64,000 bases of DNA. Source: Alphaproteobacteria bacterium. GTDB taxonomy: Bacteria > Pseudomonadota > Alphaproteobacteria > Paracaedibacterales > CAITNM01. Positions 27,829 to 30,000 of this stretch are shown in pieces. The DNA is taken from positions 5,755 through 69,754 of the forward strand of contig JBAXJB010000003.1 of the NCBI GenBank assembly GCA_037138055.1, in the 5' to 3' direction. Every line of letters starts with the position of its first letter. The stretch's first letter is position 1. The notes under the pieces are model-generated. The model had not been told where the DNA came from. It worked only from the letters and a program-made list of their open reading frames with translations, and made no database searches. The position numbers and the translations under genes were made by a program.

Positions 27829-30000
27829 GTGTCTGCTGGTGAAATTCTTTCAGTTAAAATTAAAACTACGTTTGGAGACGACACTTTTGTAGTACAACGC
27901 GTTGTGGCTGAGGAAACATTATCTGAGTCATATGTTGTTGATGTGTACGCATCAACAACAACTTCTACATTTGATGGAGACGACTTGGTTCACACGAAAG
28001 CCGGAGTAATTTTTGAAGTATATGGACAAAAAGATTCATCTTCAAAACAGGGAGTTCGTGCTTATCATGGCGTAATCACACACATGGAACATTTGAAAAC
28101 TGTCATTGATGAAGAAAAACAGTTAACGCATTTTTTCCACTTTCAGCTGCACTCTACTTTTTGGATGTTAAAACACGGATCCGACCACAGAATTTTTCAA
28201 GAACAATCAGCAATCGATATCATCCAAACTATATTAAAAGAAAATGGCGTATCTGATTTTGAGATAAAAGCCAGTGGAGGCACAAGCGTGCGCGAATACT
28301 GTGTGCAATATGGTGAAAATCACTTTGATTTTGTTTCAAGATTACTTGAAGAAGAAGGGATTGGATATTATTTCACCCATACAGATTCAAATCACACCAT
28401 GGTTTTATTTGATCAAAATTCAAGTTTTACGCACATTGCCCAAGGCTCATTAGCATTTTTAAATGTGGATGCTGACGGCGCATTCATTGATCGTGTTTTT
28501 GCTTTTGGTAAAAAATCTCAAGTAGCCCCTAAAGCTTATAAGACAATTGATTACAATTATAAAACACCCCACACACAATTGCTAAATAGCAGCTCTGGAC
28601 CTGGGTTTGGAAAAGAAATTTACGAATATCCAGGATTATTCCAAAAATCGAGTGATGGGCATAAATTAGCTGATCAACGTATGGAAGAAATTGAATGGTT
28701 TACAAAACGTGTTTATGGCAAAACAACCTGCCCAAGCATAGCACCTGGCTATACATTTACGCTGAAAGAGCATCCCATCAAAGAATACAACAAGGAATAT
28801 GTCATTTCTTATGTACGTCATGAAATTATTTCTCAAGCAGACGATCAATCAACAGAAGGAAGAGAATCTAATCTTCTAACTTATACAAACAGTTTTGAAG
28901 GTTTCTTAAAAACGATTCACTATCGCCCCTACCGTAAAACACTTAAACCGCGCATTTATGGATCACAAACAGCTTTTGTAACAGGTGCAGGAACCGAAGT
29001 ATACGGCGATCCTATGGCACGCATCAAAGTTAAATTTCATTGGGATTTACGTAACCCTGACGATGAAACAAGTTCTTTATGGATTAGAGTAAGCCAATCA
29101 TTGAGTGGAGCTGCTTGGGGAGCTTTATACATGCCACGCATTGGTATGGAAGTGGTTGTAGCTTTTATTGATGGAGATCCAGATAGGCCGTTAGTTACTG
29201 GATGCGTATACAACCAAGCATTTATGCCGCCTTATTCCCCCCAAGATAAACCTCATTACATGACTTTGAAGAGTAAAACGTTTGATGATGATTCTGGTCA
29301 TAATGAATTACGTTTTAGTGACGATCCCGGTAAAGAAGAAATATTCCTGCATGGTCAATACGATATGAATACAGTGATTGAACATAGCAGAAAAGAGGAT
29401 ATGAACACAGGCGATGATACGTTAACCATCCACAAAGGTGATAAAATGATTCACCAAAAAGGAAAAGGTACTATGTATTTAACCCTTATTGATAAGGGTG
29501 ACCGCACCACAAATCTTAAAAAGGGAAATTTTGTTATCGATGTTAATGGAACTATTTTAATTAAAGCGACCAAAGACATTACGATACAAACACCTAAAAA
29601 TATCATCATGAAGGCCGGGCAAAATATTATGATGAAGGCAGGGAAAAACATTATGATGAAAGCCGGGATGAATATACAGTCAAAAGCTGGGAAGAATATT
29701 CAAACAAAAGCAGGAATGAATATACAGTCCAAGGCAGGCATGAATATTCAATCAAAAGCAGGAATGAATATACAGTCAAAAGCTGGCATGAATATACAAG
29801 AAAAGGCGGGAATGAACATACAAGAAAAAGCAGGCATAATGATTCAAACCAAAGCTGGTATGATGATTCAGATGAAGTCCGGATTAGCTTTTCAAGCAAA
29901 AGCAGGAGCAATGATGGAATTAAAAAGCGGTGCGTTAATAAAAGCTGAAGGCGGTGCAATGGGCATGTTCAAAGGTGCAATTACGAAATTAGGAAATTAG
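27829..30000 (+). CDS. vgrG: Type VI secretion spike protein VgrG (TssI)
   Basis: GTG start. The gp27-like region is DHRIFQEQSAIDIIQTILKENGVSDFEI...REYCVQYGENHFDFVSRLLEEEGIGYYFTH. The gp5 OB-fold region is ARIKVKFHWD...LWIRVSQSLSGAAWGALYMPRIGMEVVVAFIDGDPDRPLVTGCVYN. The C-terminus is an octapeptide beta-helix. Confidence 0.92.
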   Translation: MSAGEILSVKIKTTFGDDTFVVQRVVAEETLSESYVVDVYASTTTSTFDGDDLVHTKAGVIFEVYGQKDSSSKQGVRAYHGVITHMEHLKTVIDEEKQLTHFFHFQLHSTFWMLKHGSDHRIFQEQSAIDIIQTILKENGVSDFEIKASGGTSVREYCVQYGENHFDFVSRLLEEEGIGYYFTHTDSNHTMVLFDQNSSFTHIAQGSLAFLNVDADGAFIDRVFAFGKKSQVAPKAYKTIDYNYKTPHTQLLNSSSGPGFGKEIYEYPGLFQKSSDGHKLADQRMEEIEWFTKRVYGKTTCPSIAPGYTFTLKEHPIKEYNKEYVISYVRHEIISQADDQSTEGRESNLLTYTNSFEGFLKTIHYRPYRKTLKPRIYGSQTAFVTGAGTEVYGDPMARIKVKFHWDLRNPDDETSSLWIRVSQSLSGAAWGALYMPRIGMEVVVAFIDGDPDRPLVTGCVYNQAFMPPYSPQDKPHYMTLKSKTFDDDSGHNELRFSDDPGKEEIFLHGQYDMNTVIEHSRKEDMNTGDDTLTIHKGDKMIHQKGKGTMYLTLIDKGDRTTNLKKGNFVIDVNGTILIKATKDITIQTPKNIIMKAGQNIMMKAGKNIMMKAGMNIQSKAGKNIQTKAGMNIQSKAGMNIQSKAGMNIQSKAGMNIQEKAGMNIQEKAGIMIQTKAGMMIQMKSGLAFQAKAGAMMELKSGALIKAEGGAMGMFKGAITKLGN
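29611..29970 (+). repeat. 24-bp in-frame tandem repeat, about 15 octads (KAGMNIQS consensus), forming the VgrG C-terminal beta-helix
   Basis: The octads read directly are KAGQNIMM, KAGKNIMM, KAGMNIQS, KAGKNIQT, KAGMNIQS x3, KAGMNIQE x2, KAGIMIQT, KAGMMIQM, KSGLAFQA, KAGAMMEL, KSGALIKA and EGGAMGMF. The central copies are nearly identical at the DNA level. Confidence 0.9.

What the first reader, a model, noticed from the sequence alone, without database searches (positions are those of the whole stretch)
29611..29970. VgrG C-terminal spike is built from about 15 near-identical 24-bp (octapeptide) tandem repeats
Seen: the repeat is KAG(M/K/Q)NI(Q/M)(S/T/E/M) in tandem. The central copies are almost identical at the nucleotide level (for example aaagcaggaatgaatatacagtc recurs).
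Established: the gp5/VgrG needle is a triple-stranded beta-helix with 8-residue periodicity (VxGxxxxx). In most VgrGs, however, the repeats have diverged at the DNA level.
Inference: the near-identity implies recent expansion or contraction by slippage or recombination, so spike length could vary between strains or cells. The Met/Asn/Gln/Lys-rich surface is also atypical. The protein ends shortly after the helix without an effector domain, so cargo must be separate.
Basis: partly seen in the sequence, partly recalled or inferred. Interest (0 to 1): 0.6.

Follow-up and report, generated by a model that had tools for sequence, protein, structure and literature searches.

The report
Variable-length VgrG spike repeat array
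The tail of a type VI secretion spike protein from an uncultured Holosporales-type (protist-symbiont-like) bacterium is built from 16 eight-residue rungs, and the number of rungs differs between almost identical strains, so needle length evolves fast even though the copies in this genome are not near-identical DNA.

Summary
The ORF at 27829..30000 (+) is a true VgrG/TssI: gp27-like, OB-fold and gp5-C domains are all present, and tssF/tssG lie 8 kb away. Its last 128 residues (nt 29611-29994) form 16 in-register octads, 11 of them KAGx(N/M)Ixx.

The peptide repeat is near-perfect, with lag-8 identity 0.86 against at most 0.16 at other lags. The DNA is only 78-81 % periodic. Synonymous sites between copies are saturated (pS 0.80-0.92, pN/pS 0.09-0.21), and codon sharing is no better than random.

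- Proteins at 90 % identity or more carry 12-22 units (693-771 aa).
- Assemblies differing by 0-2 nt over 1,782 nt of flanking coding sequence carry 20, 21 or 22 units.
- They show exact tandem 24-mers and a hybrid junction unit, both marks of unequal recombination.
- The array edges are stable and the centre turns over.

The gene ends without an effector domain. A translationally coupled MORN-repeat protein with an acidic tail is conserved downstream. Its negative charge co-varies with the positive charge of the spike (independent contrasts r = 0.78), which suggests the lysine-bearing rungs are a docking rail.

Verdict: a known kind of protein with a new, VNTR-like variant of its beta-helix.

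The parts
27829..30000 (+). vgrG (tssI) coding sequence, 723 aa, GTG start, TAG stop. Identical to NCBI MEI7493173.1.
   Evidence: ORF list. Pfam Phage_GPD 238 bits, Phage_base_V 53 bits, Gp5_trimer_C 41 bits. TIGR03361 493 bits against a cut-off of 186. Exact match in the protein collection.
27910..28830 (+). gp27-like hub domain (aa 28-334)
   Evidence: Pfam PF05954, E = 1.6e-70. AF2 pLDDT is mostly above 85.
29008..29211 (+). gp5-like OB-fold (aa 394-461)
   Evidence: Pfam PF04717, E = 4.7e-14.
29260..29610 (+). Proximal beta-helix: Gp5_trimer_C (aa 478-538) followed by irregular octads (aa 531-594, xxxxxKGx type).
   Evidence: Pfam PF22178, 41 bits. Octad register printed. HMMER alignment to 7Q5P and 4MTK runs through this region.
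29611..29874 (+). Octad units 1-11, KAGx(N/M)Ixx. K1, A2, G3 and I6 are invariant in all 11. This is the DNA-detectable 24/48-nt tandem array.
29707..29826 (+). Central dynamic block (units 5-9; types E F G H I). This is where units are gained, lost or converted in relatives. Units 5 and 7 are 23/24 identical.
   Evidence: Unit typing of 11 alleles. Window against L001: 14 differences in the 96 nt of units 5-8, against a flank rate of 2.1 % (P = 2e-8).
29875..29994 (+). Distal degenerate octads 12-16 (KSGLAFQA KAGAMMEL KSGALIKA EGGAMGMF KGAITKLG), forming a conserved tip. They are positionally orthologous and stable across strains.
   Evidence: The C-terminal KGAITKLG motif is conserved across the clade.
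30003..30854 (+). Translationally coupled partner gene (283 aa). It has an acidic N-terminal region (aa 1-118, net charge -23) and C-terminal MORN_2 repeats. Pipelines call it a 'YwqK family antitoxin'.
   Evidence: Pfam MORN_2, 38 bits. Source names. Conserved directly downstream of vgrG in L001-L012 and in distant L014-16, L018 and L023.
30252..30374 (+). Acidic tract of the partner (aa 84-124; 24 D/E in 41 residues), containing a 12-nt tandem repeat. It is duplicated in the expanded-array alleles.
   Evidence: TRF 30306-30358..
31802..32893 (-). Patatin-like phospholipase, conserved two genes downstream. It is a candidate separate cargo (inference).
   Evidence: Pfam Patatin, 74 bits. Synteny in L001-L011, and next to vgrG-MORN in Ca. 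Paracaedibacter symbiosus L016.
37774..40553 (+). tssF (37774-39585) and tssG (39540-40553). These T6SS baseplate genes show that the genome encodes the machine the spike belongs to.
   Evidence: Pfam T6SS_TssF, 532 bits. TIGR03347 TssG, 173 bits.

Best explanation
The region encodes the distal part of the trimeric beta-helical needle of a canonical, effector-less VgrG. The host is a Paracaedibacteraceae/'Ca. Finniella'-like alphaproteobacterium.

Structure. Each 24-nt unit encodes one octad, which is one beta-strand rung. By analogy with T4 gp5 (110 A for 23 strands), one rung adds about 4.8 A. A three-fold symmetric triple helix accepts any whole number of rungs, so in-frame gain or loss of units is structurally tolerated.

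Selection. The peptide KAGMNIQS is held by purifying selection. In this genome the copies are old and scrambled at synonymous sites.

Turnover. The central 5-11 units are reshuffled by unequal recombination, slippage and conversion between units. This happens much faster than point substitution. It produces a VNTR-like series of spike lengths among otherwise near-identical strains. The edges of the array stay fixed.

Function (inferred). The rungs display one lysine each. They act as a docking rail for the acidic N-terminal tail of the co-translated MORN-repeat protein encoded immediately downstream.

Shown: VgrG identity, the octad array, synonymous saturation, copy-number polymorphism, recombination junctions and charge co-variation. 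Inferred: beta-helix geometry of the last ~70 residues, which residues face outwards, docking, and any fitness effect of length.
For: Identity:
- domains; 7Q5P E = 8e-78; 4MTK E = 3e-73, aligned to aa 634-643; AF2 pLDDT 80-87 to about aa 640; Foldseek 4MTK E = 9e-53 over 640 columns; tssF, tssG.

Protein-level constraint:
- pN/pS is 0.09 for units 3-9, with pS 0.80.
- Same-codon fraction is 0.399 against 0.48-0.52 expected.
- K1, A2, G3 and I6 are invariant.

Turnover:
- Length classes of 693, 707, 723, 755, 763 and 771 aa occur in one 90 % cluster. The cluster with diverged repeats is 714 aa in 19 of 20 members.
- Unit maps are WIN ABCDEFGHIJ..., L002 AQCDGDGHRJ..., L001 TUCVWXWYRJ..., then 20-, 21- and 22-unit alleles that differ by W->WW->WWW and X->XX.
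- Those alleles differ by 0-2 nt in 1,782 nt. The same allele was recovered from three, and another from four, independent assemblies.
- Unit d is the 5' part of unit I joined to the 3' part of unit W.
- L002 carries an exact 48-nt duplication.
- Units 5 and 7 are identical or nearly identical within each allele but differ by 4-5 nt between alleles, which indicates local conversion.
- P0144 lost one unit through a hybrid KASMNIQE.
- Instability tracks repeat homogeneity. The longest exact repeat is 25 to at least 60 nt in variable alleles and 13-15 nt in the stable L005 and L006.

Docking:
- The array has net charge +15 (19 K, 4 E). The partner N-region has net charge -23.
- The net charge of the VgrG C-terminal 200 aa correlates with the net negative charge of the partner N-region: Spearman 0.97 over 14 lineage representatives. 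Independent contrasts give r = 0.78, n = 13, P = 0.001, with 10 of 13 the same sign.
- The vgrG-MORN pairing is conserved over 33-98 % VgrG identity.
- The acidic tract is duplicated in the expanded alleles.
Against: - The trimeric beta-helix could not be modelled. The monomer model has pLDDT below 50 from aa 655 and no DSSP strands after aa 508, which is expected for an intertwined trimer but is not proof.
- The octad consensus K-A-G differs from gp5's V-x-G and G-[ND] pattern (PMC3004832).
- All relatives are metagenome assemblies. Repeat arrays are prone to collapse or chimerism, and no reads were available.
- Three 98 %-related genomes all have 16 units, so length is not free to vary in every lineage.
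- No genome-wide concerted-evolution signal was found between lineages.
- The charge correlation uses a crude domain boundary (everything but the last 165 aa), guessed start codons and a rough NJ tree. It is partly a length effect, because the per-residue version is weaker (rho = 0.55, P = 0.04).
- The MORN protein could instead be an immunity or adaptor protein, or unrelated to the array.
Confidence: 0.75

Rival explanations
1. The copies in this genome are recent DNA duplicates, and the locus is hypermutable on a cell-to-cell timescale, as a contingency locus driven by slipped-strand mispairing would be.
For: - Units 5 and 7 are 23/24 identical, with a 25-nt exact repeat.
- TRF period-48 scores best.
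- Close relatives carry runs of identical 24-mers and differ in copy number on almost identical backgrounds.
Against: - In the window allele all nine core units are distinct. pS among copies is 0.80-0.92, against 0.04-0.09 between strains, and codon sharing is at or below random.
- Changes are in-frame only, so there is no on/off switch.
- The 16-unit length is shared by three genomes about 2 % apart.
- The same alleles recur unchanged in several samples, which argues against very high switching rates.
Confidence: 0.2
2. The length differences are assembly artefacts, caused by collapse or expansion of a tandem repeat in short-read metagenome assemblies. The true copy number is fixed.
For: - All comparison sequences are MAG or metagenome contigs.
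- Some alleles contain exact repeats of at least 60 nt, which can confuse k-mer assemblers.
Against: - The identical 20-unit allele came from three different samples. The identical 22-unit array map came from three different samples, and a fourth 22-unit assembly (L011) differs from it at a single unit.
- The 693-aa form is seen on 35 contigs and the 707-aa form on 11.
- Arrays contain enough unit-specific synonymous differences to be spanned by 150-nt reads.
- Every difference is a whole number of units, with sensible hybrid junctions.
Confidence: 0.07
3. The variation is real but neutral. The beta-helix simply tolerates any number of rungs, length has no functional consequence, and the array is not a binding site. 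The charge correlation is a by-product of shared composition or length drift.
For: [quoted passage not shown]
- Paralogous P. aeruginosa VgrGs work with 20, 33 or 26 strands (PMC3069435).
- The charge correlation weakens when normalised by length.
Against: - Strong purifying selection acts on the octad peptide (pN/pS 0.09).
- The KAG motif and the KGAITKLG tip are conserved family-wide.
- The contrasts remain significant.
- L012 and L015 break the clade pattern in both traits together.
Confidence: 0.3
4. Diversifying selection or an arms race. The exposed spike is recognised by the eukaryotic host or by competitors, and length or sequence variation is selected for evasion or for matching different target membranes.
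For: - Holosporales-type bacteria are obligate associates of protists, and their T6SS is the leading candidate host-interaction system (PMC11909080).
- Array change is rapid relative to the flanks.
- The neighbouring ORF 26482..27147 is also fast-evolving.
Against: - Amino-acid sequence within units is conserved, not diversified (pN 0.08).
- Only the number of units changes.
- There are no host data.
Confidence: 0.12

Closest known systems
Bacteriophage T4 gp5 C-terminal domain (triple-stranded beta-helix needle)
   Same: Strict 8-residue periodicity, with a glycine once per octad. The needle is built from stacked rungs of three intertwined chains. It is Met-rich near the tip. About 4.8 A is added per rung (PMC3004832).
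   Different: The consensus is K-A-G-M-N-I-Q-S, not V-x-G-[ND]-x-x-x-x. Lysine sits where gp5 has valine when the two repeats are aligned on the glycine. The repeats here are far more uniform (up to 4 identical octads), and their number varies between strains. gp5 has 11 diverged repeats.
Pseudomonas VgrG1 spikes (PDB 4MTK, 4UHV, 7Q5P), which are effector-less 'short' VgrGs
   Same: Same domain order (gp27-like, OB, gp5-C beta-helix) and no C-terminal effector. Sequence E-values are 1e-73 to 1e-78, and Foldseek gives E = 1e-51 to 1e-53 over about 640 columns.
   Different: The window protein is about 80 residues longer, and the extra length is the homogeneous KAG octad array. Identity is only 26 %. 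The P. aeruginosa paralogues differ in strand number (20, 33, 26; PMC3069435), but that is between paralogues, not as a strain-level repeat polymorphism.
DUF2345 (PF10106/COG4253) C-terminal extension of long VgrGs (E. coli VgrG1, A. baumannii VgrGs)
   Same: It is a beta-rich extension of the spike beyond gp5-C. In E. coli it helps hold a cargo effector (Tle1) on the spike (as summarised in PMC6960284). There is a weak Pfam hit at aa 575-687.
   Different: The hit is below the Pfam threshold (24.0 against 30.7 bits). There is no transthyretin-like domain and no coiled-coil linker. The proposed partner is a MORN_2 protein with an acidic tail, not a lipase bound through a TTR domain.
Variable-number in-frame tandem repeats in bacterial surface and solenoid proteins, such as ice-nucleation proteins and Alp/Rib-family adhesins (from my own knowledge, not tested here)
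   Same: Unit gain and loss occur in-frame by unequal recombination. The edges are stable and the centre is homogenised. The peptide is conserved under purifying selection.
   Different: Here the repeat is a structural rung of a secretion-system needle inside the cell until it is fired. It is not a surface adhesin or antigen. I found no published case for a VgrG beta-helix.

Membership tests
VgrG / TssI (T6SS spike) | gp27-like hub domain (Phage_GPD) | tested here: met
   PF05954, 238 bits, aa 28-334.
VgrG / TssI (T6SS spike) | gp5-like OB-fold followed by the gp5-C trimerisation/beta-helix segment | tested here: met
   PF04717, 53 bits, aa 394-461. PF22178, 41 bits, aa 478-538.
VgrG / TssI (T6SS spike) | Passes the curated NCBIfam VgrG models | tested here: met
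   TIGR03361, 493.5 bits (cut-off 186). TIGR01646, 340 bits (cut-off 122).
VgrG / TssI (T6SS spike) | Other T6SS core genes in the same genome | tested here: met
   tssF 37774-39585 and tssG 39540-40553. The rest of the machine lies outside the window and was not examined.
VgrG / TssI (T6SS spike) | Fold matches solved VgrG spikes | tested here: met
   Foldseek 4mtk_A E = 9e-53 and 7q5p_A E = 3e-51, about 640 columns. pLDDT is 80-87 up to about aa 640.
gp5-type triple-stranded beta-helix | 8-residue sequence period with one Gly per repeat | tested here: met
   Lag-8 identity 0.86 against at most 0.16 at other lags. G3 is invariant in units 1-11.
gp5-type triple-stranded beta-helix | V-x-G-x-x-x-x-x consensus (Val at g, Gly at a, Asn/Asp at b) | tested here: not met
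   The consensus is K-A-G-M-N-I-Q-S. The gp5 consensus is taken from PMC3004832. The period is the same but the residue pattern differs.
gp5-type triple-stranded beta-helix | Three chains intertwined into a prism through residues 595-722 | not testable with these tools
   Only monomer prediction is offered. The monomer has no intra-chain strands after aa 508 and pLDDT below 50 after aa 655.
DUF2345 (PF10106) VgrG extension | Score at or above the Pfam gathering threshold | tested here: not met
   24.0 bits against 30.7, aa 575-687. Some relatives carry a precomputed PF10106 hit, so the relationship is possible but weak.
Variable-number tandem repeat / contingency locus | Unit number differs among closely related strains | tested here: met
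   12-22 units within one 90 % cluster. 20, 21 and 22 units occur with 0-2 nt difference in 1,782 nt.
Variable-number tandem repeat / contingency locus | High DNA identity between units in this genome (the substrate for slippage) | tested here: not met
   TRF 78-81 %. The longest exact repeat is 25 nt. pS is 0.8-0.9.
Variable-number tandem repeat / contingency locus | Length heterogeneity within one population or culture | not testable with these tools
   No reads are available. JGI sample ids only hint that the alleles coexist in one study system.

The most novel reading that the evidence does not exclude
The octad array is a tunable, lysine-laddered loading rail. The number of rungs, and so the positive charge, sets how the acidic-tailed MORN-repeat protein rides on the spike. 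That protein is encoded one codon-gap downstream and may bring other cargo with it, such as the nearby patatin-like lipase. Rail and tail co-evolve by matching in-frame tandem duplications. This gives intracellular Holosporales-type symbionts a rapidly adjustable needle length and payload for interacting with different protist hosts. It would be a cargo-loading mode not described for T6SS.
Probability: 0.2. Interest if true: 0.7.

Novelty: new variant of a known kind. Interest (0 to 1): 0.45.

Why it matters
VgrG spikes are usually treated as fixed-length parts. Here nature provides an allelic series of 12-22 rungs, roughly a 50 A range, on nearly isogenic backgrounds. That would allow a direct test of whether needle length or surface charge matters for firing, membrane penetration or cargo loading.

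The organisms are uncultured relatives of protist endosymbionts. Their T6SS is thought to be the key host-interaction system, yet it has no experimental data (PMC11909080).

The charge co-variation points to a testable, previously undescribed spike-partner pair: VgrG and a MORN_2 protein.

There is also a methodological lesson. A near-perfect peptide repeat does not imply recent DNA duplication, and the instability was visible only by comparing strains.

Tried and rejected
- Recent duplication in this genome. Rejected by the codon-sharing simulation and by pS/pN.
- Genome-wide concerted evolution between lineages. Within-genome codon sharing (0.36-0.55) is no higher than between-genome sharing. 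Only local conversion in the central block is supported.
- Beta-helix confirmation by structure prediction. Only a monomer could be run, and it is uninformative for the last 70 residues. A linked trimer cannot be submitted.
- My first automatic extraction of downstream ORFs picked wrong genes in several loci. I redid it using tblastn anchors.
- L010's partner gene appears disrupted or overlapping, with an altered VgrG C-terminus (KLEYGF). I excluded it.
- Literature searches for VgrG repeat-number polymorphism or VgrG-MORN links found nothing relevant. The 'variable number' hits refer to numbers of vgrG genes.
- The second 724-aa ORF (11192..13366, minus strand) is an adenylate/guanylate cyclase, not a second VgrG.
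- The antisense ORFs across the array (for example 29651..29959, minus strand) are Leu-rich by-products of the repeat. I did not pursue them.
- I did not search for PAAR genes.
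Full report
OBSERVATION

The ORF at 27829..30000 (+), 723 aa with a GTG start, contains the reported feature. Read in register from aa 595 (nt 29611), the sequence is:

KAGQNIMM KAGKNIMM KAGMNIQS KAGKNIQT KAGMNIQS KAGMNIQS KAGMNIQS KAGMNIQE KAGMNIQE KAGIMIQT KAGMMIQM KSGLAFQA KAGAMMEL KSGALIKA EGGAMGMF KGAITKLG N*

That is 16 octads, 11 of them of the KAGx(N/M)Ixx type. 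Lag-8 amino-acid identity is 0.86 over 64 residues, against at most 0.16 for six control lags. Tandem Repeats Finder reports period-24 and period-48 arrays over 29596-29863. The periodic array, its coordinates and 'about 15 copies' are therefore confirmed.

DNA-LEVEL SIMILARITY

The claim of nucleotide near-identity is not confirmed.
- TRF gives 78-81 % matches.
- The nine KAG.NI[QM]. units are nine different 24-mers.
- Only units 5/7 (23/24), 3/7 (22/24) and 3/5 (21/24) are close. Other core pairs are 17-20/24.
- At codons that encode the same residue, copies share the same codon in 0.399 of comparisons. The expectation from random synonymous codon choice is 0.477 with window codon usage and 0.522 with vgrG's own usage (5,000 simulations each).
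- Nei-Gojobori counts give pS = 0.80 and pN = 0.076 for units 3-9, and pS = 0.92 and pN = 0.19 for units 1-11. Orthologous pS between this genome and its closest relatives is 0.04-0.09.

The copies in this genome are thus old, saturated at silent sites and held together by selection on the peptide. It marks the one pair that looks recently duplicated or converted.

WHAT THE GENE IS

- Pfam finds Phage_GPD (aa 28-334, 238 bits), Phage_base_V (394-461), Gp5_trimer_C (478-538) and a sub-threshold DUF2345 hit (575-687; 24 against 30.7 bits).
- NCBIfam TIGR03361 scores 493 bits against a cut-off of 186.
- The best solved relatives are the Pseudomonas VgrG1 spikes 7Q5P and 4MTK (E = 1e-78 and 1e-73, aligned up to aa 634-643).
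- An AlphaFold2 monomer model (pLDDT 79.5, pTM 0.70) matches 4MTK and 7Q5P over about 640 columns (E = 1e-53 and 1e-51).
- From aa 509 the model has no intra-chain strands. Confidence stays at 74-91 to about aa 650 and falls below 50 from aa 655. An intertwined trimer modelled as a monomer would look like this, so the result neither proves nor refutes a beta-helix for the last 70 residues.
- tssF and tssG lie at 37774-40553.
- The protein is identical to NCBI MEI7493173.1, from an alphaproteobacterial MAG.
- Relatives are labelled Ca. Finniella, Odyssella, Paracaedibacteraceae or Holosporales. In that group the T6SS is nearly universal, described as non-standard, and experimentally unexplored (PMC11909080).

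COMPARISON WITH RELATIVES

Lengths in the window's 90 % cluster. Full-length members are 693, 707, 723, 723, 755, 763, 771 and 771 aa. A sister cluster whose repeats have diverged is 714 aa in 19 of 20 members. Its one exception, 706 aa, lost exactly one unit through a hybrid KASMNIQE.

Unit maps. I gave each distinct 24-mer a letter:
- window: ABCDEFGHIJKLMNOP
- L002: AQCDGDGHRJKLMSOP
- L001: TUCVWXWYRJZLaNbP
- L080-82: TcCVWWHdXeYIIfZLagOP (20 units, three samples)
- L083: TcCVWWWHdXeYhIfZLagOP (21 units)
- L084-86: TcCVWWWHdXXeYIIfZLagOP (22 units, three samples)
- L011: the same as L084-86, with W in place of e

The first four and the last seven units are positional orthologues. The centre is rebuilt.

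Rate. The 20-, 21- and 22-unit alleles differ by 0-2 nt in the 1,782-nt non-repeat part. Array events therefore outpace substitutions.

Marks of unequal recombination and conversion:
- Unit d is the 5' 17 nt of unit I fused to the 3' end of unit W, a crossover junction.
- L002 has an exact 48-nt duplication.
- Units 5 and 7 are identical or nearly so within each allele, yet differ by 4-5 nt between alleles.
- Units 5-8 of the window and L001 differ at 14 of 96 nt, against 2.1 % in the flanks (P = 2e-8).

Substrate dependence. Instability scales with the available substrate. The longest exact repeats are 25 to at least 60 nt in the variable alleles and 13-15 nt in the stable L005 and L006.

Caveats. 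Three genomes about 2 % apart all keep 16 units, and every comparison sequence is a metagenome assembly. The recurrence of identical alleles in independent samples argues against artefact (rival confidence 0.07).

MECHANISM

In T4 gp5, 23 strands span 110 A, and each octad is one strand of a three-chain prism (PMC3004832). By analogy each unit here adds about 4.8 A. The observed 12-22 units correspond to a range of about 50 A. Three-fold symmetry means any whole number of octads is compatible with the fold, and 24 nt preserves the reading frame. This explains why only whole-unit changes are seen.

The motif is not the classical valine-glycine repeat. K1, A2, G3 and I6 are invariant, position 5 is N or M, and positions 4 and 8 vary. 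Strand parity groups A2, M4, I6 and S8 on one side and K1, G3, N5 and Q7 on the other. I infer that the former set forms the core and the latter the surface. If so, the surface is Lys/Asn/Gln and Met is mostly buried. This is inference only.

KAGxx[IM]xx octads occur throughout related alphaproteobacterial VgrGs. Highly uniform arrays arose independently, for example KAGMKIQN/KAGMEIQS in P0028 and P0030. Among 93 homologues at 31-44 % identity the median lag-8 identity is 0.36, and 13 reach 0.5 or more.

CARGO

The protein ends at KGAITKLGN with no effector domain. Two nucleotides after its stop codon begins a 283-aa ORF (30003..30854). It has an acidic N-terminal region (net charge -23, including 24 D/E in 41 residues at aa 84-124) and C-terminal MORN_2 repeats. 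Pipelines label it 'YwqK family antitoxin'.

Synteny. The order LOG(-) - vgrG - MORN - lepB - patatin(-) - tsaD is conserved in L001-L012. The vgrG-MORN pair persists in distant Paracaedibacteraceae at 33-38 % VgrG identity.

Charge co-variation:
- The array is basic: 19 K and 4 E, net +15.
- Across 14 lineage representatives, the net charge of the last 200 VgrG residues tracks the net negative charge of the partner's N-region. Spearman is 0.97, or 0.87 for the last 128 residues.
- Independent contrasts on a tree built from the non-repeat part of VgrG give r = 0.78, n = 13, P = 0.001, with 10 of 13 contrasts of the same sign.
- L012 (spike -6, tail -4) and L015 (+14, -24) depart from their clades in both traits together.
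- The expanded-array alleles also carry a duplicated acidic segment (EEEDAHDDKEEDS x2). L011 has a further 45-aa duplication.

I therefore propose, at about 35 % confidence for this step alone, that the lysine ladder is a docking rail for the partner's acidic tail. The boundary definition is crude, and the per-residue correlation is weaker (rho = 0.55). The patatin-like phospholipase two genes downstream is a further cargo candidate, and it is still adjacent to vgrG-MORN in Ca. Paracaedibacter symbiosus.

COMPARISON WITH WHAT IS KNOWN, AND NOVELTY

The gene passes every testable VgrG criterion. It shares the period of the gp5 repeat but not its consensus. It fails the DUF2345 threshold. It meets the inter-strain criterion of a VNTR but not the criterion of intra-genome DNA identity.

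Differences in strand number between VgrG paralogues are known (20, 33 and 26 in P. aeruginosa; PMC3069435). C-terminal extensions can hold cargo (E. coli DUF2345/TTR-Tle1, as summarised in PMC6960284). I found no report of strain-level unit-number polymorphism in a VgrG beta-helix, nor of a VgrG-MORN_2 pairing.

VERDICT

The finding is a real, ordinary-architecture VgrG with a new, VNTR-like variant of its needle. Interest is 0.45.

Noticed in passing
window 30003..30854 (acidic tract 30252..30374); L011 8319-9347; L080 3372-4265: The MORN_2 gene downstream of vgrG carries its own in-frame tandem duplications in relatives. One is a 13-aa acidic segment (EEEDAHDDKEEDS x2) in L080, L083 and L011. 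The other is a 45-aa duplication in L011. Protein lengths are 283, 285, 297, 298 and 343 aa.
   Followed up: partly
window 31802..32893 (-): A patatin-like phospholipase is conserved two genes downstream of vgrG across the clade. It is still adjacent to vgrG-MORN in Ca. Paracaedibacter symbiosus (L016, 69 % identity). It is a plausible T6SS lipase-type cargo.
   Followed up: no
window 35285..37702 (+): An 805-aa ORF lies immediately upstream of tssF/tssG and has no Pfam or NCBIfam hit, even at E <= 1. It could be a divergent T6SS component or an effector.
   Followed up: partly
window 26482..27147 (+): This 221-aa ORF has a TTG start and a hydrophobic N-terminus. It is only 44 % identical in L001 and 81 % in L011, while the adjacent LOG-family gene is 99 % identical. 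It is a fast-evolving gene next to vgrG.
   Followed up: no
window 27829..40553: T6SS genes are scattered. vgrG is separated from tssF/tssG by housekeeping genes: lepB, tsaD and an MFS transporter. This fits the 'non-standard' Holosporales T6SS described in PMC11909080.
   Followed up: partly
window 29611..29874: Codon sharing between octad units (0.399) is slightly below the random expectation (0.477-0.522). The fraction of simulations at or below the observed value is about 0.05 with genome codon usage and 0.003 with vgrG usage. This may reflect selection against DNA-level repeat identity, or chance.
   Followed up: partly
L010 8058-8082 (CAITNM010000040.1): This 693-aa allele ends KGAITKLEYGF instead of KGAITKLGN. 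The downstream MORN reading frame overlaps the vgrG stop codon. This could be a frameshift, a junction rearrangement or an assembly error. The same 693-aa protein is seen on 35 contigs.
   Followed up: no
L080-L086 (JGI samples 3300034022, 3300034096, 3300035212, 3300042937, 3300043465, 3300042887): The 755-aa and 771-aa alleles come from samples whose ids fall in the same numeric series (Ga03350xx and Ga0453xxx). This suggests the length alleles coexist in one study system. Sample metadata could not be checked.
   Followed up: no
window 11192..13366 (-): This 724-aa ORF, almost the same length as VgrG, is a Cache-domain adenylate/guanylate cyclase. It is unrelated to the finding.
   Followed up: yes
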